A stretch of 64,000 bases of DNA. Source: a virus. Its lineage: Duplodnaviria > Caudoviricetes. Within the stretch, counting starts at the first letter, position 1. Each line of letters opens with the position of its first letter. Below are positions 1,359 to 56,463 of this stretch, in pieces. The translations under genes were made by a program, and so were the position numbers. The notes beneath the pieces were generated by a model that worked only from the letters and a program-made list of their open reading frames with translations, was not told the origin of the DNA and made no database searches. The stretch is from positions 1 through 64,000 of IMG/VR virus record IMGVR_UViG_2824317532_000002; one strand, given 5' to 3'.

Positions 1359-1573
1359 TCGACCACGCTGGGGCTCGACGTGGAGCCGATGGCCGTAGAC
1401 GCCAGTGAGGTCAGGATCGACAGCACTGCGGCGCCGGCCGCGATTCCGCCGGCGAGGCGCGGGTCGGCGTTGAGGATGTTGAACTGGTCGAGCGGCCACA
1501 GGCCGAGTAGCGCCTGAGCGGCCGACTTCACGGCGCGCTCGGTGGTCTCCCGCCAGAAAACTGCGGTGCGCAT
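1355..1573 (-). CDS. Holin (r1t-like)
   Basis: FWRETTERAVKSAAQALL...AAVLSILTSLAS signature; downstream of endolysin. Confidence 0.8.
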   Translation of the reverse strand: MRTAVFWRETTERAVKSAAQALLGLWPLDQFNILNADPRLAGGIAAGAAVLSILTSLASTAIGSTSSPSVVE

Positions 1574-10876: not shown

Positions 10877-11491
10877 TTAGCGGTGGCGCTCGATGTAGTC
10901 GGCGGCGGCGCGGAGGCGCGCCGGGTCGTCGCCGAGCTGTCCGATGCCCAGGTTGCAGGAGCCGCACAGCAAGCCACGGACCTTGCTGCTGTTGTGGCAG
11001 TGATCGACGGCCCACTTGGTGAAGTTGCCGCCGGGCTGGTCCGTTCCGCAGATCGCGCACCGGCCACCCTGGGCCGCCATCAGCGCCTCGTAGTCGGCGA
11101 GCGTGATGTCGTAGCGGTACTTCAGGAAGTACTCGTGGTTCCGCTTGCTCCAGCCAGAGCGAGCCACTCGTGCGCGTTCACGGCCACCAGCAGAGCTGAC
11201 GTACTCCCGGTAGTACTCCTTGTCGCACTCCCGGCAGTAGCCCTTAAGGGAACCGGGGCGGTTCTTCGCGCCCTTGCGCCGATCGAACTGGTCGACCGGC
11301 TTGGTCTGGGTGCAGCGCGAGCATCGCTTCTCGACGGCGTCTGGAGGCGTCGGGGAGGAGCGCAGTTGCGCGAGCGGGTCACCGTGTCGCTGCCAGCGCG
11401 AGTAGTGCATTGAGCACCATCCGCGCGTGAAGGACGGCTTGTCGCAACTCTCGATGCAGCATGTCTTGGCCTGCGGGGCACGGGCATCCAT
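10877..11491 (-). CDS. Endonuclease VII domain-containing protein
   Basis: QGGRCAIC...VDHCH..KVRGLLCGSCNLGIG; N-terminal zinc fingers. Confidence 0.9.
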   Translation of the reverse strand: MDARAPQAKTCCIESCDKPSFTRGWCSMHYSRWQRHGDPLAQLRSSPTPPDAVEKRCSRCTQTKPVDQFDRRKGAKNRPGSLKGYCRECDKEYYREYVSSAGGRERARVARSGWSKRNHEYFLKYRYDITLADYEALMAAQGGRCAICGTDQPGGNFTKWAVDHCHNSSKVRGLLCGSCNLGIGQLGDDPARLRAAADYIERHR

Positions 11492-37215: not shown

Positions 37216-37223
37216 GTACCCTG

Positions 37224-37297
37224 AGCCGCCTGTCGGAATCGAACCGACGACCTACGCATTACGAGTGCGTCGCTCTAGCCGACTGAGCTAAGGCGGC
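37224..37297 (-). tRNA. tRNA-Thr(CGT), probable integration target of prophage 1
   Basis: GCCGCCT acceptor stem, TAGCTCAGTCGG D arm, CT-CGT-AA anticodon loop, GGTTCGATTCC T arm; CCA not encoded. Confidence 0.97.
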
Positions 37298-49159: not shown

Positions 49160-49483
49160 CTACTCCTTGCGAGTGCGCTCTTCCGCGCACACCTCGCGCC
49201 ACTGCTCGATAACCTGGCCACGCAGGATCGTCAGGCCGGAAACCATGTCGTCGAGCGTGTCGATCAAGTGGCTCAGCGCGTCTGATCGGTTCTCCGGGTA
49301 CTCGCCCGCCTCCCTGGCGCGCAGTGTCGCGTTCTCGCCAGGCTTGCGGTCCGGCGGCGACACGTACACCGTGCCCGACACATCCCAGATGCCCTGGAGC
49401 GTCGCCGCGCCAGCACGGACCGCGCGCAGGACTTTCAGGATGTGGCGACGACTCGCGGCACGCGGGCTACCGGAACGGCTCAC
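49160..49483 (-). CDS. Hypothetical early protein
   Basis: GTGA overlap with upstream gene. Confidence 0.55.
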   Translation of the reverse strand: MSRSGSPRAASRRHILKVLRAVRAGAATLQGIWDVSGTVYVSPPDRKPGENATLRAREAGEYPENRSDALSHLIDTLDDMVSGLTILRGQVIEQWREVCAEERTRKE

Positions 49484-49836
49484 CGGGTCACGCCCACGGC
49501 GTCAGCGATCACGAGCAGGTCATCGGCCGTACGGTGGTCGAGCCAGACGACGCTGTACGCCAAACCCAGGTCATGCGTGCAGTCACCGTCAAGGCGCGAC
49601 GGACCGTAGACGGTACCCTCACGGTCGCGCTCCACCATGAGATCAATCTCCAGCGCGGCCGGAGCGCATGACTGCGGACCTTCCGGGTCTTCCGGATTGT
49701 TCGGCATCCATGCCAGTTCGCCGCGCTCCAGCTCGGCACGCAAGTACTCCCACGCCTCACGGGCAGTGTCGAATACCGGCGGCTCGTCATCCATCGGCAG
49801 GTAGCCAGGGATGTTCACGTAGGCAGTAAATGACAT
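49480..49836 (-). CDS. Acidic early protein
   Basis: NIPGYLPMDDEPPVFDT..EAW; RBS. Confidence 0.7.
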   Translation of the reverse strand: MSFTAYVNIPGYLPMDDEPPVFDTAREAWEYLRAELERGELAWMPNNPEDPEGPQSCAPAALEIDLMVERDREGTVYGPSRLDGDCTHDLGLAYSVVWLDHRTADDLLVIADAVGVTR

Positions 49837-49865
49837 TGCATTCCCTCTCTGCGGGCATTCTTACG

Positions 49866-49918
49866 TGCCCCGGGCAGGGATCGAACCTGCATTCGCACGC
49901 CTGTTGTGCGCCCGGGGC
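49866..49918 (-). ncRNA. D-arm-less tRNA-like element
   Basis: GCCCCGG-G-CGCAC(AACAGGC)GTGCG-AAT-GCAGG(TTCGATC)CCTGC-CCGGGGC-A. Confidence 0.7.
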
Positions 49919-49923
49919 CAACA

Positions 49924-50283
49924 TCAGTTGTCGAGCAGCAAATCGGTCATGTCATCGGGCTCCGGCAGGTAGTGCGCGCCAAGCGCATCGCGCGTGTCGG
50001 CACTAGACAGGCTCAGCGCGTCCGTAAGGATGGCCTTCCACCACTCATCCATCGGCGCTTCTTCCAGCCATTCCGAGAGCAGGTTCGCGACCGCGATTCC
50101 AACCACGCGCACGCAGTCGGAATAGTCGGCACCGTGCGCATAGGCCGCCCGGTATGCATCCTGGCTCGGCGGGACTGATCCCATGTCGTTAACGATTGCC
50201 TCCTGCGCGGCTTCCGTGATCGCGTAGTAGCGCGCGAAGTCATTGTTGTCAGCGATAAGTGTCACGGCGTCAATGAGACTCAT
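49924..50283 (-). CDS. Acidic early protein
   Basis: 119 aa, Asp/Glu-rich; GAGAGG RBS. Confidence 0.7.
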   Translation of the reverse strand: MSLIDAVTLIADNNDFARYYAITEAAQEAIVNDMGSVPPSQDAYRAAYAHGADYSDCVRVVGIAVANLLSEWLEEAPMDEWWKAILTDALSLSSADTRDALGAHYLPEPDDMTDLLLDN

Positions 50284-50343
50284 TGGGGTTTCCTCTCAGC
50301 ATTGCCCACGGAATGCAGGCAGGGGGGTGAAGGCGAATTCGGA

Positions 50344-50715
50344 TCAGTACTGCGGAAGGTCTTTCCAGCCGTCCACATCTTTGCCGCCGTCCGTGACGAA
50401 ACGGTGTTCCAGGTAAGCGAGCATCGCCGTGCGAATCGCAAGGTCCGATTCGGTAGGGTCGCCATGCGGAGAATCCATCCACCAGCCAAAGAGGGATTCG
50501 TCCATGTAATCCACTGGCGTTGCGAATTGATCCTCAGCGTGGTTGAAGTCGTATGGGAAGGCAAAGTTTCCTGTGCTGTCAAACCAGCAGGAAGCCCAGT
50601 TCCACGTGTAGGCGTGCGCGAACTGGCGCGCGGCGCGATCGGAAATGATGGCGTCATTCGCGTTAGCCTCGCGAGCCTCAGCCAGCGACCAGCTACTCAC
50701 GTGCGCATTTCCCAT
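50344..50715 (-). CDS. Acidic aromatic-rich early protein
   Basis: 123 aa, many D/E and W/F. Confidence 0.7.
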   Translation of the reverse strand: MGNAHVSSWSLAEAREANANDAIISDRAARQFAHAYTWNWASCWFDSTGNFAFPYDFNHAEDQFATPVDYMDESLFGWWMDSPHGDPTESDLAIRTAMLAYLEHRFVTDGGKDVDGWKDLPQY

Positions 50716-50746
50716 TAGGCCGTTCCGTTCTCTCGGTATTGCGGAG

Positions 50747-50794
50747 TGCCGTACCGGGCCATGACACCCGTGCCCGCCTACGCGGGAGTACGGC
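50747..50794 (-). ncRNA. Second tRNA-like three-way junction
   Basis: GCCGTAC-T-CCCGC(GTAG)GCGGG-CA-CGGGT(GTCATG)GCCCG-GTACGGC-A. Confidence 0.55.
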
Positions 50795-50800
50795 CGTGAA

Positions 50801-51178
50801 TCATTCGCGCGACATCTGAGCGGAGTAGTTCAGGAACGTTTGGCCAGACATGCCCGTGCCGTACCGGCTGGCGCAGTTCGGGCAGAGGTAGTAGCCATCG
50901 GCCGGAACGCTGTCGATGAACACGCGCGCCGGAATGGTGCGGAACCGTGCCGTGTCCATGTGGCAAATGAGGCACAGCTCGCCGCGCTCACCGCTCTTCG
51001 CATAGAACGCCAGCGTTTCCACCAGGGTCCATGCCGCACGATGAGCCTCTTCGCAGGTCCACAGGTACGCGTTCCGGTCCTGGGGCAGGCCCGTCTCGTC
51101 GGCCTTCCGCGCAGCTCTACTGATCTTGAGATCCCAGAGGTCCCGTAGGTCAACAATCAAACGCAATTCAGGGGTCAT
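50801..51178 (-). CDS. Zn-finger early protein
   Basis: CLIC...LCPNC; GGAG RBS. Confidence 0.65.
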   Translation of the reverse strand: MTPELRLIVDLRDLWDLKISRAARKADETGLPQDRNAYLWTCEEAHRAAWTLVETLAFYAKSGERGELCLICHMDTARFRTIPARVFIDSVPADGYYLCPNCASRYGTGMSGQTFLNYSAQMSRE

Positions 51179-51242
51179 GGTAAGACTCCATTTCGTGAGG
51201 GAGGAATTGCAGGGGGAAGTGCCTCGGATCTCAGTCCGTGAG

Positions 51243-51317
51243 TGGCAGGCCATCATCGGGCACGGAATGCCAATCCGCGCGACGGTATGACCCGTTTCCG
51301 GGTCCACCGTTTCGGCC
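51243..51317 (-). ncRNA. Type II hammerhead ribozyme (variant core, pseudoknot)
   Basis: GGCC-GAAA-stem III-GUC-stem I-CCGAUGA-U-GGCC-UGCCA; three helices pair and loop I is complementary to the 3' tail. Confidence 0.85.
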
Positions 51318-51323
51318 GTGAAA

Positions 51324-51971
51324 TCAGACCAGCGCGGGTCGTCCGAGCGATTTCCGCTTGAGGTTGCGAAGCGAGATCAGTAGGAACTTCTCGGCCGAGT
51401 CACCCCAGATCACATCGTTACCGGAACACTCCGGGTAGAAGTCGTCCTCGCTCACCGCCTGCCAGAAACCCTGTTCGATTTCCTCGCGAGTGAATTCGTC
51501 CGCCACTTCCTGCCACCACTCCGGAAGGTCGGAGTACAGATCGGCGAACAGGTAGCCGCTGAATGACTCGTGAGCAGCCTCGTATTCAAGCTCACTCAAG
51601 TCGGACTCGTCGTAAACCGGGTACTGCTCTTTCAGGCCGATGACCGTGTTGATCAGGCGATCCGAAACCGAGTGCAGGAAGAACCCGAGTCCGTCGCACC
51701 CGGTGTATCCGACACGAAAGAACGCCATGCCGTAATCGCGCTCCAAGCTGCGGAAGTTGCTGATCTCCCAGAATGAGACCTGTCCCGCCCAATCCTCAGA
51801 GATCGCGCCGTCCACCTCGACAAACGGGCGCTCCGTCTCGTCGTAAGCGAACGGGTGAGCGTAAGCGGAGTGAATCCGGCCCTTCTCGTAAACGTCGGCC
51901 GGATCGGCGTAGCGCACGCTGAAACCAGCGCGCTTCAAATCGTCGATACGCTCTGCAAGCTTGACGTTCAT
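51324..51971 (-). CDS. Highly acidic first early protein
   Basis: 215 aa; YPVYDESDLSELEYE; first gene after the leftward promoter. Confidence 0.75.
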   Translation of the reverse strand: MNVKLAERIDDLKRAGFSVRYADPADVYEKGRIHSAYAHPFAYDETERPFVEVDGAISEDWAGQVSFWEISNFRSLERDYGMAFFRVGYTGCDGLGFFLHSVSDRLINTVIGLKEQYPVYDESDLSELEYEAAHESFSGYLFADLYSDLPEWWQEVADEFTREEIEQGFWQAVSEDDFYPECSGNDVIWGDSAEKFLLISLRNLKRKSLGRPALV

Positions 51972-52042
51972 GCCCTGCCTTTCGGGTGCTGAGTAAACAC
52001 TAGGCTCGCTCGGTTCGCTGCGCTGCCGAACCGATGGGAAGA

Positions 52043-52071
52043 ACGCTAGTCCAGGACAAGACTAAACACAA
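52043..52071 (-). promoter_or_regulatory. Putative major early leftward promoter with operator in the spacer
   Basis: TTGTGT-N17-TAGCGT; 13-bp motif at 52057-52069; 5' hairpin TCGGTTCG/CGAACCGA. Confidence 0.6.
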
Positions 52072-52394
52072 GTCCGGGGTGGAACTTTCTTGTTTTCCCT
52101 GCTCAGAACGCCTGTCAGGCGCTGGGACGCGAGGCCTGCGCGCCCATGGGCACGGCTACCAGGCAGAGGCGTTCGCCCCGCCCGTGAACGTCACGCTGCG
52201 GTCCGCTCGCGCCTCCGCACGTGTAGCCGTGACCCTCGCATGCGTGCGCGCGCCTGCGTGCCTCTCAGGTCCACGGGTGCCCATGCAGCGGCGAGGTGCC
52301 CTAGTCGCATGACACAGCCGGCATCTCACTGGCCTAGTCACTAGGACAGTAGTCATCTGACAGCTTGCCGTATCCCAGCGTGACTCACCCGTTA

Positions 52395-52470
52395 CCGGGG
52401 GTATGACCCCCTGCGAGCTGGGACGCTCACCGGCCGTGGCTAGCACCTGAGATTCTGCCACGGTTCCAAA
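52395..52470. other. Candidate cos site of prophage 2 (near CGGCCGTGGCT, 52431-52441)
   Basis: Lies between divergent arms after GGGGGTATGACCCCC; resemblance to cluster A/BD end sequences is from memory only. Confidence 0.35.
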
Positions 52471-52989
52471 GTCGCCCAAGACGCGACGAAGCGCCGCCAC
52501 CCGATGGGCAACGGCGCTGGTCAGACAGTGTTCCGGCGGCGAGCTAGTCCTCGTACATGGCTGCCCGGTTCGCCTCCTGAAATTCCTCCTGGCTGAGGTC
52601 GCCGGCAAGGTGCATGCCCAGGGTTGTGTAGGTGACGTGAGCGACTTCCAGGCGCTGCATCACCGATCAGCCCGTGATGGTCTCTCATGTTCTTACCTGG
52701 CTGCCCGACCTACGCGGCCACGGTACCAAGGCCGATCCGTCCTGTAAGTGAACGAGGCCAGGACGATTGCGGTGTATGGCCGGTTGGTCTCATCGAAGGA
52801 AGCGGCTCCCATAGGACATGACTATACACGACCGGGGCCTTCGGCCCCACGAGCGGGTTAGCCGGCTAGCAAGGGATTCCGCTGCCTTCTCTTCGCCGAT
52901 GCATGGGGCCTCCGGCCCCTGTGGGTTTCCTTCGCCGCTGGGCGATCACATGGCTGGTTCTCTTGGAAGGGTTCAAGAGCATGGTTTGG

Positions 52990-54822: not shown

Positions 54823-56463
54823 ATGGCTGCGGCCACCCTGACCCCCGAGGAGATTGAAGCACTGGAGCCCGACTTCTACGGGCCGACCTGGCAGCGCAAC
54901 GACGACGGCTCCTGGCACCTGCCTCGCTGGACGCTCGGATGGCAGATCGCCGCCTGGTGCGCCGAGTACCTGCGTGCCGAGGACGGCGGGCCCTGGCGGT
55001 TCACGCCGGAGCAACTGCGCTTCATCTTGTGGTGGTACGCGGTCGACGAGAGCGGCCGGTTCGTCTACCGCAAGGGAGTTCTGCAGCGGCTCAAGGGCTG
55101 GGGTAAGGACCCGATCGTTGCGGTCATGTGCCTGGTCGAGCTGGCCGGGCCGAGCCGGTTCTCGCACTTTGAGCTGGATCAGGCGTTCGGCGTGCCGCAC
55201 CCGCAAGCCTGGGTTCAGGTCGCCGCGGTTTCGCGTGACCAGACCCGCAACACCATGACGCTGTTCCCCTCGCTGATGAGCGACAGGTTCATCGAGACCT
55301 ACGGCATCAAGGCGGGCGCCGAGCTGATCCGTGCGAACGGTGGCCGGCAGCGCCTCGAAGCGGTGACCAGCTCCTATCGGGCGCTGGAAGGTGGCCGCTC
55401 GACGTTCGTCGTCCTGAACGAGACGCACCACTGGATCGCCGGGAACAACGGCCACCAGATGTACGACACGATCGACGGCAACACGACCAAAAAGGACTCC
55501 CGGTATTTGGCGATCACCAACGCCTTCTTGCCTGGTGAGGACTCGGTTGCCGAGAAGATGCGCCTGGCCTGGGAGAAGATTCGCGAGGGTAAGGCAATCG
55601 ATGTCGGCTTCCTCTACGACTCGATCGAGGCGCACCCGAAGACCCCGTTGACGCCTGAGGCGTTGCGGATCGTCCTGCCGAAGATTCGCGGCGACGCGGT
55701 CTGGCTCCGGGTCGAGACGATCATCCAGTCGGTTCTCGACCTGACGATCGCGGCCAGCCGGTCGCGTCGGATGTGGCTCAACCAGATCGTCGCCGAAGAG
55801 GACGCGCTCTTCTCGTCGGCCCAGTGGGTTCCGCTGGAGATCGAAGGCGCGATCCTCAAGCCTGGCGACGAGATCACGCTCGGGTTCGACGGCGGTAAAA
55901 CCGATGATGCCACCGCCCTTGTGGCTCTCCGGCGGTCGGACAACTGCGCGTTCGTGCTTGGCCTGTTCGAGAAGCCGGACGGTCCGGCCGGCGAAGGCTG
56001 GCGGGTCAGTCAGGCGGCGGTCGACTCGGTAGTGCATGACGCGTTCCGCCTGTTCAAGGTGCTCGGGTTCTACGCCGACGTGGCGTTGTGGGAGTCCTAC
56101 ATCACTGCGTGGACGGAGACGTACGGCGAGGGCCTGAGCGTCAAGGCGGGTGCCGGAGGCGCGATTGCCTGGGACATGCGGACCAGCTTGAAGCGCTCAA
56201 CCATGGCGCATGAGCGCCTGATGCAATCCGTGTTCGACGGCAAGATCCACCATGACGGTGACCTGGCGCTGCGGCGCCACGTGCTCAACGCACATCGCCG
56301 TGTCAACAACTACGGCATCAGCTTCGGCAAGGCCGGCGGGCGCGAGTCGCCCCGCAAGGTCGACGCCTACGCGGCCCTGATGCTCGCCCACGAGGCGATG
56401 CACGACTTCCGTACCCGCGGCAAGCGCGTCAAGGAGCGCTCAGGTCGCGGCTATTTCCTCTGA
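54823..56463 (+). CDS. Terminase large subunit
   Basis: RLKGWGKDP, LNETHHW, GFDGGKTDDAT, KVDAYAA. Confidence 0.95.
   Translation: MAAATLTPEEIEALEPDFYGPTWQRNDDGSWHLPRWTLGWQIAAWCAEYLRAEDGGPWRFTPEQLRFILWWYAVDESGRFVYRKGVLQRLKGWGKDPIVAVMCLVELAGPSRFSHFELDQAFGVPHPQAWVQVAAVSRDQTRNTMTLFPSLMSDRFIETYGIKAGAELIRANGGRQRLEAVTSSYRALEGGRSTFVVLNETHHWIAGNNGHQMYDTIDGNTTKKDSRYLAITNAFLPGEDSVAEKMRLAWEKIREGKAIDVGFLYDSIEAHPKTPLTPEALRIVLPKIRGDAVWLRVETIIQSVLDLTIAASRSRRMWLNQIVAEEDALFSSAQWVPLEIEGAILKPGDEITLGFDGGKTDDATALVALRRSDNCAFVLGLFEKPDGPAGEGWRVSQAAVDSVVHDAFRLFKVLGFYADVALWESYITAWTETYGEGLSVKAGAGGAIAWDMRTSLKRSTMAHERLMQSVFDGKIHHDGDLALRRHVLNAHRRVNNYGISFGKAGGRESPRKVDAYAALMLAHEAMHDFRTRGKRVKERSGRGYFL

What the first reader, a model, noticed from the sequence alone, without database searches (positions are those of the whole stretch)
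51243..51317. Pseudoknotted type II hammerhead ribozyme with a non-canonical core
Minus strand reads GGCC GAA ACGGU G GACCCG GAAA CGGGUC AU ACCGU C / GCGCGGA UUGGCAU UCCGUGC CCGAUGA U GGCC UGCCA. Stems I, II and III all pair, the cleavage triplet is GUC (cut between 51281 and 51280), and loop I UGGCA pairs with the 3' tail UGCCA. The core is CCGAUGA instead of CUGANGA (U4C) with one extra U before stem II. Hammerheads in phage intergenic regions are known, but their roles are mostly unresolved, and whether this variant is active needs testing.
Basis: partly seen in the sequence, partly recalled or inferred. Interest (0 to 1): 0.82.

Follow-up and report, generated by a model that had tools for sequence, protein, structure and literature searches.

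The report
Prophage hammerhead ribozyme with C4 core
A self-cutting hammerhead RNA sits between two early genes of an Actinoplanes prophage; it is a true relative of ordinary phage hammerheads but has a rare one-letter change in its catalytic core, and whether it still cuts is untested.

Summary
It lies between a 215-aa and a 125-aa gene of a prophage in Actinoplanes campanulatus JCM 3059.

Rfam does not call it. However, a covariance model built only from two canonical hammerheads of another actinomycete prophage (G384) hits it at 47.6 bits, E about 2e-10. The next best site in the window scores 15.2 bits. Six related elements show 96.7% pairing, with changes on both sides in 12 of 22 pairs.

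Its closest relative shares the GAAACGG arm, loop I, the extra U and the UGGCA/UGCCA pseudoknot, but has U4. So C4 is a derived point change.

In 111 viral loci I found 223 unique type II hammerheads: 217 canonical and 3 U4C. The extra U is common (53 of 223). U4C is a published viroid variant, slow in vitro yet functional in vivo (PMC3088659).

Verdict: a genuine member of a known kind with a rare, recurrent core variant; activity untested. This scan noted C4 phage hammerheads before on other DNA (e1-3754239, e1-5851700).

The parts
51314..51317 (-). Stem II, 3' strand (GGCC; C11.1 = 51314)
   Evidence: Pairs with 51251-51248 in the MFE fold. Aligned to stem II of the G384 hammerheads by model R2.
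51311..51313 (-). Core G12 A13 A14 (GAA)
   Evidence: Read. Invariant in all 6 aligned members.
51282..51310 (-). Stem III hairpin, A15.1 (51310) to U16.1 (51282): 6 bp, bulged A, 6 bp, GAAA loop
   Evidence: MFE fold. The outer pairs covary among relatives (helix 2: 7 of 7 pairs fully paired, 4 with changes on both sides).
51281..51281 (-). C17, the predicted cleavage site (cut between 51281 and 51280)
   Evidence: GUC triplet read. C at this column in all 6 aligned members. Cleavage itself was not tested.
51260..51280 (-). Stem I hairpin: 7 bp plus loop UUGGCAU (51273-51267)
   Evidence: Against G384_a, two pairs change on both sides and one on one side. Helix 3 is 97.4% paired, with 6 of 7 pairs changed on both sides.
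51253..51259 (-). Core C3-A9 reading CCGAUGA; C4 = 51258 where the family has U
   Evidence: The window is the only one of 6 aligned members with C at this column.
51252..51252 (-). Extra U between A9 and G10.1
   Evidence: Also present in G384_a and L002 and in 53 of 223 unique viral type II hammerheads.
51248..51251 (-). Stem II, 5' strand (GGCC; G10.1 = 51251)
51243..51247 (-). 3' tail UGCCA, pseudoknot partner of loop I UGGCA (51272-51268)
   Evidence: Complementarity read. The identical pair is present in G384_a. Different but complementary pairs occur in L009 and L002. Helix 4 is 88% paired.
51324..51971 (-). Upstream gene, 215 aa, acidic, function unknown; its stop TGA (51326-51324) lies 6 nt before the ribozyme
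   Evidence: Matches phrog_3906, function unknown, E = 2e-6. No Pfam match. Homologs at 38-53% identity.
50801..51178 (-). Downstream gene, 125 aa; ATG 51178-51176 preceded by GGAG 51189-51186; 102 nt downstream of the predicted cut
   Evidence: The start choice is my inference from the Shine-Dalgarno spacing. No Pfam or PHROG match.

Best explanation
This is a genuine type II hammerhead ribozyme by descent. It belongs to a widespread phage and prophage lineage characterised by the GAAAC arm, a 7-bp stem I, a YUGGCAU loop I pseudoknotted to a UGCC tail, and often an extra U after A9. It has acquired a single U-to-C change at core position 4.

It is transcribed as part of the minus-strand early operon of an Actinoplanes prophage, starting 6 nt after the stop of the first gene.

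Inferred mechanism: the RNA folds as it is transcribed and cuts itself after C17 (51281). That would leave the 215-aa message ending in the long stem III hairpin with a cyclic phosphate. The 125-aa message would begin with a 5'-OH at the base of the stem I hairpin. The stability and translation of the two cistrons would then be uncoupled.

Because of C4, cleavage is expected to be slower than in its U4 relatives, but probably not abolished.

Shown here: sequence, fold, homology, covariation, operon position, and recurrence of C4. Inferred only: transcription, cleavage, its rate, and its effect on the messages.
For: Identity:
- Model R2, built only from two G384 hammerheads, scores the element 47.6 bits (E = 1.9e-10). 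The next best site in the window scores 15.2 bits.
- All other core positions are canonical: C3, G5, A6, G8, A9, G12-A14, A15.1-U16.1 and C17.
- 96.7% of cells pair, 12 of 22 pairs change on both sides, 0 of 500 shuffles reach this, and slid controls give 28-43%.
- G384_a shares the arm, loop I, N7 = U, the extra U and the identical pseudoknot, while stems I and III differ by compensated changes.

Context:
- Canonical type II hammerheads lie near homologs of the 215-aa gene in 3 of 12 related loci: L002, L009 and L024. L009 scores 40.5 and one G384 copy 38.4, against the Rfam gathering score of 37.
- By contrast, 0 of 151 sampled actinomycete genomes passed that cut-off.
- 139 of 230 viral hammerheads start within 20 nt of the stop of an ORF of at least 50 codons, as this one does.

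Activity:
- All 23 helix pairs and the pseudoknot are intact.
- C4 recurs in three other distinct phage hammerheads inside arrays of canonical ones: L037, L046 and L100. It accounts for 3 of the 6 unique single-substitution deviants.
- PMC3088659 (discussion passage) says the U4C variant considerably decreases activity in vitro but still permits viroid infectivity.
- U at the extra position after A9 raised the rate 3-4-fold in CChMVd (PMC3705267, passage).
Against: - No Rfam hammerhead model reports the element at gathering score, or at E <= 10 on 251 or 3001 bases.
- U4 is almost invariant: 217 of 223 unique viral members are canonical. PMC3088659 (section 8) says the phosphate linking A6 to N7 interacts with U4, and that most core mutations cause drastic loss of activity.
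- All five closest relatives have U4, so C4 could be a recent disabling mutation in a resting prophage.
- The census that suggests C4 is favoured is small. In the core-free scan, U4C was only 1 of the unique deviants, beside A9U (1) and an N7 insertion (2).
- The L046, L070 and L093 copies are one phage (99.99-100% identical), so they say nothing about long-term retention.
- The hammerhead is absent from 9 of 12 loci carrying the related gene, including the closest one with flanks, L006.
- The alignment behind one search was fitted to the model's structure.
- There is no expression or cleavage data.
Confidence: 0.6

Rival explanations
1. It is a dead or nearly dead hammerhead. The U4C change has inactivated a formerly active ribozyme in a resting prophage. 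What remains is a stable three-way junction that may at most act as a passive structure, for example a barrier to exonucleases between the two cistrons.
For: U4 is canonical in 217 of 223 unique viral members and in all five closest relatives. PMC3088659 says most core mutations cause drastic loss of activity and that U4C considerably decreases activity in vitro. That paper also found predicted ribozymes with disruptive core mutations to be inactive (section 8; its Figure S7 was not seen). Prophages accumulate neutral damage.
Against: Only one position has changed. All 23 helix pairs and the 5-bp pseudoknot are intact, despite extensive compensated divergence from G384_a. The same change occurs in three other intact phage hammerheads. 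The only natural U4C reported in the papers I read still worked in vivo (PMC3088659).
Confidence: 0.3
2. It is a conditionally active hammerhead. C4 was selected to make cleavage slow or dependent on a cellular condition, such as a metal ion or pH, so that the two cistrons are separated only at a certain stage of infection.
For: C4 elements sit in arrays next to canonical copies, in ordinary post-stop positions. U4C is the only single substitution seen more than once (3 of 6 unique deviants; P = 0.012 if the 11 possible transitions were equally likely). The phage Bcep176 A6C core variant prefers Mn2+ over Mg2+ (PMC7151607, abstract and introduction). PMC3088659 proposes that slower phage variants may become active under particular conditions.
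Against: There is no direct evidence. The enrichment test rests on six sequences with partly biased sampling. No accompanying second-site change is shared by the four C4 elements: N7 and the 1.1-2.1 pair differ among them.
Confidence: 0.15
3. It is not a hammerhead at all but a chance three-way junction, an intrinsic terminator, or a tRNA-like processing signal like the neighbouring junction elements.
For: Rfam gives no hammerhead hit. High-GC DNA folds readily. The next two intergenic spacers on this strand hold non-hammerhead three-way junctions. A descriptor allowing one deviation would produce many chance hits over a scan of very many windows (0.02 per window).
Against: The independent model R2 gives 47.6 bits against 15.2 for the best other site. 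There is near-identity of the arm, loop, extra U and pseudoknot with a canonical hammerhead. No terminator-like site overlaps the element. ARAGORN finds no tRNA there.
Confidence: 0.03

Closest known systems
Type II hammerhead ribozymes of bacteria and prophages with a loop I / 3'-tail pseudoknot (Rfam RF02276; Perreault et al. 2011, PMC3088659, sections 6 and 8 read)
   Same: The topology is the same: stems I and III capped, stem II open, GAA, A15.1-U16.1 and a C17 site. The pseudoknot of 4 or more bp lies between loop I and the bases just after stem II. The element is intergenic in a prophage operon, on the strand of the genes.
   Different: C instead of U at core position 4. Stem III is long (12 bp with a bulge, against about 6-8 bp). 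It does not reach the Rfam score. It is a single copy in this prophage, not a tandem array.
The three tandem hammerheads of the prophage in genome G384 (L026 9751-9685, 9107-9042, 8659-8596, minus strand)
   Same: These are the closest relatives found. They share the GAAAC arm, a 7-bp stem I, the YUGGCAU loop and the UGCC tail. G384_a also shares N7 = U, the extra U and the identical UGGCA/UGCCA pseudoknot. All start 5-15 nt after a stop codon.
   Different: All three have U4. Their stem III is short. There are three copies about 450-640 nt apart. The flanking genes are unrelated, except for one homolog of the 215-aa gene about 1.2 kb upstream.
Viroid hammerhead with the U4C core change (Ambros and Flores 1998, known to me only through PMC3088659; the paper itself is not held)
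   Same: It has the same substitution at the same core position in a natural hammerhead. It is reported as much slower in vitro yet sufficient in vivo.
   Different: It is a type III hammerhead in a circular plant-pathogen RNA that processes replication intermediates, not a type II element in a DNA phage operon.
Bacteriophage Bcep176 A6C hammerhead (PMC3088659 section 8; PMC7151607 abstract and introduction)
   Same: It is a natural single-base core variant in a phage intergenic region, with low activity in Mg2+ (k_obs below 0.1 per min).
   Different: The position differs (A6, not U4). Its Mn2+ preference has been measured; nothing has been measured here.
CChMVd (+) hammerhead with an extra residue between A9 and G10.1 (De la Pena and Flores 2001, as cited in PMC3705267 and PMC1636495, passages read)
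   Same: It has one extra nucleotide at the same place. U at that place was the best tolerated, with a 3-4-fold faster rate.
   Different: The natural viroid residue is A. In this phage lineage U is the usual insert (53 U, 4 A, 2 C, 1 G among 223).

Membership tests
Hammerhead ribozyme, type II (Rfam RF02276) | Three-way junction with stems I and III closed by loops and stem II open | tested here: met
   The MFE fold gives exactly this. Model R2 aligns all three helices.
Hammerhead ribozyme, type II (Rfam RF02276) | Core G12 A13 A14, the A15.1-U16.1 pair, and H17 (not G) at the cleavage site | tested here: met
   GAA at 51313-11, A at 51310 paired with U at 51282, C at 51281. These are invariant in the 6-member alignment.
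Hammerhead ribozyme, type II (Rfam RF02276) | Core C3, G5, A6, G8, A9 | tested here: met
   The core at 51259-51253 reads C-C-G-A-U-G-A, so these five positions match.
Hammerhead ribozyme, type II (Rfam RF02276) | Core U4 | tested here: not met
   C at 51258. This is a documented natural exception in a viroid (PMC3088659). It is also found in 3 of 223 unique viral type II hammerheads. I therefore file the element as a variant member by descent, not as a consensus member.
Hammerhead ribozyme, type II (Rfam RF02276) | G10.1-C11.1 pair closing stem II | tested here: met
   G 51251 pairs with C 51314, after one extra U at 51252. The extra U occurs in 53 of 223 members.
Hammerhead ribozyme, type II (Rfam RF02276) | Pseudoknot of 4 or more bp between loop I and the bases just 3' of stem II (the type II consensus in PMC3088659, section 6) | tested here: met
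   UGGCA (51272-68) pairs with UGCCA (51247-43), 5 bp. The same pair is in G384_a. Other complementary pairs occur in L009 and L002.
Hammerhead ribozyme, type II (Rfam RF02276) | Score at or above Rfam's gathering cut-off (37 bits) | tested here: not met
   No hit at gathering score, or at E <= 10. The same model also misses the canonical L002 hammerhead and scores G384_a at 36.8, so this is a sensitivity limit.
Hammerhead ribozyme, type II (Rfam RF02276) | Homology to accepted members, judged by a model that excludes the candidate | tested here: met
   R2 was built from G384_a and G384_b only. One of these passes the Rfam cut-off at 38.4 bits. R2 scores the window element 47.6 bits, E = 1.9e-10.
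Hammerhead ribozyme, type II (Rfam RF02276) | Site-specific self-cleavage giving a 2',3'-cyclic phosphate and a 5'-OH | not testable with these tools
   This needs a transcription and cleavage assay or end-mapping. No RNA run was listed for this DNA.
tRNA or tRNA-like element | Acceptor stem plus T arm with a T-loop motif | tested here: not met
   ARAGORN reports only tRNA-Thr at 37223-37297. There is no Rfam tRNA-clan hit in 49300-52300. Loop I, UUGGCAU, is not a T-loop (reading; the T-loop consensus is recalled).
Intrinsic terminator | GC-rich hairpin followed by a run of U | tested here: not met
   No terminator-like site overlaps 51243-51317. No U run follows either hairpin.

The most novel reading that the evidence does not exclude
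C4 hammerheads may be a deliberately attenuated or conditional class. Replacing U4, whose contact with the A6-N7 phosphate is noted in PMC3088659, with C would make cleavage depend on a cellular variable. Candidates are protonation of C4 (pH) or a particular metal ion. Phages would place such a slow copy at chosen gene junctions to time the separation of neighbouring messages. The natural C4/U4 pair formed by the window element and G384_a would then be a ready-made test system.
Probability: 0.12. Interest if true: 0.65.

Novelty: new member of a known kind. Interest (0 to 1): 0.36.

Why it matters
Hammerheads between prophage genes have been known since 2011, yet their role is still unsettled. 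This element adds a well-supported case from a high-GC actinomycete, a group where the Rfam model finds almost none (0 of 151 sampled genomes above cut-off).

It also shows that the supposedly invariant U4 is replaced by C in several otherwise intact phage hammerheads. If the C4 form still cuts, it gives a natural slow allele beside close U4 relatives, useful for asking what cleavage rate a phage operon actually needs. If it does not cut, it is simply a recently disabled ribozyme.

There is also a practical point. Rfam RF02276 misses members with a long stem III, so surveys that rely on it under-count hammerheads in actinomycete prophages.

Tried and rejected
**Rfam.** Three searches of the window gave no hammerhead. 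I treat this as a weak negative because the model also misses L002's canonical element.

**Alignments and models.** MAFFT alignments A2, A6 and A7 mis-registered stem III or whole sequences and were not used for counting. The single-sequence model R1 ranked the L002 hammerhead first and L009 fourth. However, it gave noise up to 17.8 bits in the window, so I replaced it with R2.

**Searches for relatives.**
- blastn and tblastn against deposited phage genomes: no match.
- Single-protein scans of viral contigs: nothing.
- No whole genome is held for the window or for L001.
- Sub-threshold Rfam hits in actinomycete genomes (L013, L021-L023) lack a CUGANGA core and I rejected them.
- R3 over the order of G384 added only one weak hit, G411 at 27.9 bits, which I did not examine.

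**Rejected or unsupported readings.**
- The ORF ending before L009's hammerhead is not shown to belong to the 215-aa family (E = 0.23).
- Only the 215-aa protein is shared between the window's early genes and the G384 region, so strict synteny of the junction is not supported.
- The terminator and tRNA readings were rejected.
- The compact alternative register 51301-51250 would need a U-G pair at 10.1-11.1 and does not match the family's C-GAAAC arm. I consider it less likely, and it does not change the core or the cut site.

**Census bias.** My first census was biased because its pattern allowed only C or U at position 4. I repeated the scan with the core left free and report both.

**Expression.** No RNA holder was listed for this DNA.

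**Papers.** Ambros and Flores 1998 and Nelson and Uhlenbeck 2008 are not held. For 'not in print' I rely on only two searches. 'hammerhead' with 'U4C' returned only PMC3088659. 'hammerhead ribozyme / core variant / natural variant / phage' from 2012 returned nothing relevant beyond PMC7151607. I opened no supplementary files. Figures S6 and S7 and Dataset S1 of PMC3088659 may list further core variants, including phage U4C.

Full report
**1. The observation**

- Stem II is GGCC (51317-14) with GGCC (51251-48).
- GAA is at 51313-11.
- Stem III spans 51310-51282, and C17 is 51281.
- Stem I is a 7-bp hairpin with loop UUGGCAU, spanning 51280-51260.
- The core reads CCGAUGA at 51259-53, with C4 at 51258.
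- The extra U is 51252, and the tail UGCCA is 51247-43.

The minimum-energy fold of the 75 nt is the proposed three-way junction: -37.9 kcal/mol, z = -2.94, and 1 of 200 shuffles folds as well. In that fold stem III pairs as 6 bp, a bulged A, then 6 bp.

A descriptor of my own allowed at most one deviation anywhere in the core. It found this site and no other in the window. In 100 simulated 64-kb sequences it gave 0.02 loci per sequence, and none with a perfect core. So the site is not expected by chance in this window. Over a scan of very many windows, though, such near-misses would occur, so conservation had to decide.

A second, compact register (51301-51250) also satisfies the descriptor, with the same core and cut site. 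I judge it less likely.

**2. Context**

The window matches Actinoplanes campanulatus JCM 3059 at 100% (L001). A large terminase subunit lies at 54823-56463, and GC drops from about 0.70 to 0.60 around the element. This is prophage DNA.

The element is intergenic on the coding strand. It begins 6 nt after the TGA (51326-24) of a 215-aa acidic protein whose only match is phrog_3906, of unknown function. It ends 64 nt before the ATG (51178) of a 125-aa protein with a GGAG seven bases upstream.

No terminator-like site overlaps it, and ARAGORN sees no tRNA there.

**3. Rfam says no, but that is a sensitivity limit**

Rfam 15 gave no hammerhead match at gathering score, or at E <= 10 on 251 or 3001 bases. 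I record this as evidence against a simple membership claim.

The same library also misses a canonical hammerhead with a long stem III in Kribbella (L002). It scores one of the G384 hammerheads at 36.8 bits, just under the cut-off of 37. It found none above cut-off in 151 sampled actinomycete genomes, and the three sub-threshold hits there are not hammerheads.

**4. Relatives**

That gave 12 loci with a related gene.

In 3 of the 12, a canonical type II hammerhead lies in the fetched flank on the strand of the gene:
- L002, 3753-3832, just upstream of the homolog.
- L009, 245-311, which Rfam scores 40.5 bits.
- G384, L024 307-245.

The other 9 show none, including L006, the closest relative with flanks. 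Presence is therefore patchy.

G384 in fact has three tandem hammerheads at L026 9751-9685, 9107-9042 and 8659-8596. Each starts 5-15 nt after a stop codon. This is the gene-flanking arrangement described for prophages in PMC3088659 (section 6 read).

**5. Independent membership test**

I built model R2 from the two G384 hammerheads alone (A8). Against the window plus three loci (88.7 kb, filters off), it scored:
- the window element at 47.6 bits, E = 1.9e-10;
- L009 at 28.4 bits;
- L002 at 23.9 bits;
- the best other site in the window at 15.2 bits.

The six elements were then aligned to the model (A10):
- 96.7% of 122 cells pair.
- 12 of 22 pairs show changes on both sides.
- 0 of 500 shuffles reach the observed values.
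- Sliding the partners gives 28-43% pairing.

One caveat is that the alignment was fitted to the model's structure.

G384_a is strikingly close to the window element. It has the same GAAACGG arm, a loop I differing in one base, N7 = U, the extra U, and the identical UGGCA/UGCCA pseudoknot. Stem I differs at three pairs, two of them changed on both sides, and stem III also differs by compensated changes.

The window is the only one of the six with C at position 4. C4 is therefore a derived point change in a lineage whose helices have been kept by selection.

**6. How unusual are the two core deviations?**

I scanned the viral contigs twice.
- Scan 1 used a pattern for this lineage that allowed C or U at position 4: 84 stretches, 132 matches, 127 U and 5 C.
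- Scan 2 corrected that bias by leaving the whole 7-nt core free and using the pseudoknot tail for specificity instead. It gave 105 stretches, 149 matches, 122 with good stems, and 111 unique. Of these, 104 were canonical, 1 was U4C, 1 was A9U, 2 had a one-base insertion at N7, 1 was a register shift of a canonical core, and 2 were not hammerheads.

I then ran a position-neutral descriptor census over the union of 111 loci (1,009,819 bases). It found 235 type II hammerheads, 223 unique. Of these, 217 are canonical and 6 have a single substitution: U4C three times (L037, L046, L100), and G12U, H17G and A9U once each. A shuffled control over the first 84 loci gave 0 canonical and 1 single-deviation hit.

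If the 11 possible transitions were equally likely, three or more U4C among six has P = 0.012. The sample is small and its ascertainment is not fully clean.

The C4 copies lie inside arrays of canonical copies, 3-11 nt after stop codons. The L046, L070 and L093 copies are one phage seen in three metagenomes (99.99-100% identical). That rules out a sequencing slip but says nothing about long-term retention.

The extra residue after A9 is ordinary: none in 163, U in 53, A in 4, C in 2 and G in 1 of 223.

**7. What the literature says**

- PMC3088659 (sections 6 and 8 and discussion passages read) establishes several points. It describes the type II consensus with its pseudoknot, the prophage association, and arrays flanking single genes, including the anti-restriction gene ardA. 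It reports the near invariance of the core and a contact between U4 and the A6-N7 phosphate. [quoted passage not shown]
- The phage Bcep176 A6C variant is slow in Mg2+ and prefers Mn2+ (PMC7151607, abstract and introduction).
- An extra A between A9 and G10.1 occurs in CChMVd, and U at that place raised the rate 3-4-fold (PMC3705267 and PMC1636495, passages).
- My two searches for later reports of position-4 variants in phage hammerheads found nothing further. I did not see supplements.

**8. Mechanism**

Shown: a hammerhead homolog with an intact scaffold sits on the sense strand between the first two genes of the early operon, directly after a stop codon. The same holds for 139 of 230 viral members, which start within 20 nt of the stop of an ORF of at least 50 codons.

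Inferred: self-cleavage after C17. This would give an upstream message capped at its 3' end by the 12-bp stem III hairpin with a cyclic phosphate. The downstream message would start with a 5'-OH inside the stem I hairpin, 102 nt before its ATG. The fates of the two messages would then be separated. With C4 the rate should be lower than in U4 relatives.

My probabilities:
- about 0.95 that it is a hammerhead by descent;
- about 0.6 that it still cleaves at a useful rate;
- about 0.3 that it is a disabled relic;
- about 0.03 that it is something else.

A conditional, tuned ribozyme is a bolder subset of the active reading. I give it 0.15 in its general form and 0.12 in the more specific form stated under the novel case.

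**9. Novelty and verdict**

This is a new member of a known kind. It is a type II prophage hammerhead carrying a core variant already published for a viroid, and found here in three other phage elements.

Earlier notes of this scan report C4 phage hammerheads on other DNA (e1-3754239, e1-5851700). My own census agrees with the second note: the extra U is the norm and U4C is a recurrent minority.

The finding is sound and mildly interesting, chiefly as a natural C4/U4 pair for testing, and as evidence that Rfam under-detects hammerheads in actinomycete prophages. Interest 0.36.

Noticed in passing
window 50747-50794 (-): A compact three-way junction lies directly after the stop of the 125-aa gene. 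It shares the 5' lead-in TTCACGGCCG with the hammerhead element. It has no hammerhead core, and its fold is only modestly better than shuffles (z = -1.6).
   Followed up: partly
window 49866-49918 (-): A tRNA-like mini-element sits between two early genes, with a 7-bp closing stem and a T-arm-like GGTTCGATCC (z = -2.5). ARAGORN and Rfam do not call it. It could be a processing signal playing the same role as the hammerhead; that is inference only.
   Followed up: partly
L024 about 1395-1450 (-) (genome G384): Right after the stop of the homolog of the 215-aa gene there is an element with GGTTCGAATCC, again T-arm-like, in the slot where the window has its hammerhead. Its fold is no better than shuffles (z = +1.1).
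   Followed up: partly
L026 8596-9751 (-) (genome G384): There are three tandem type II hammerheads about 450 and 640 nt apart, flanking small genes. Rfam scores two of them 38.4 and 36.8 bits and does not list the third.
   Followed up: yes
L116 2352-2411 (-) and L137 (+, match starting near 11447): Two distinct phage hammerheads have the core CUGAAUGA, a one-base insertion at N7, with otherwise intact stems and pseudoknot tail.
   Followed up: no
L094 7033-10652 (+); L072, L087 and L100 (one contig): Some phage contigs hold very dense arrays. L094 has eight pattern matches in 3.6 kb, and another contig has fourteen over its three loci. The maximum on one locus strand is 12 by my descriptor.
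   Followed up: no
L002 3753-3832 (+) (Kribbella sp. NBC_01505): A canonical type II hammerhead with a long stem III and the extra U is missed by Rfam RF02276 at E <= 1, and is not among the 9 listed genome hits at E <= 10. This is a sensitivity gap for high-GC members.
   Followed up: partly
The sigma-70 consensus scan found no promoter in 49300-52700.
   Followed up: no
window 52113-52182 (-): A GC-rich structured stretch upstream of the operon scored 15.5 bits with the single-sequence model R1 but has no hammerhead core. It is probably noise.
   Followed up: no
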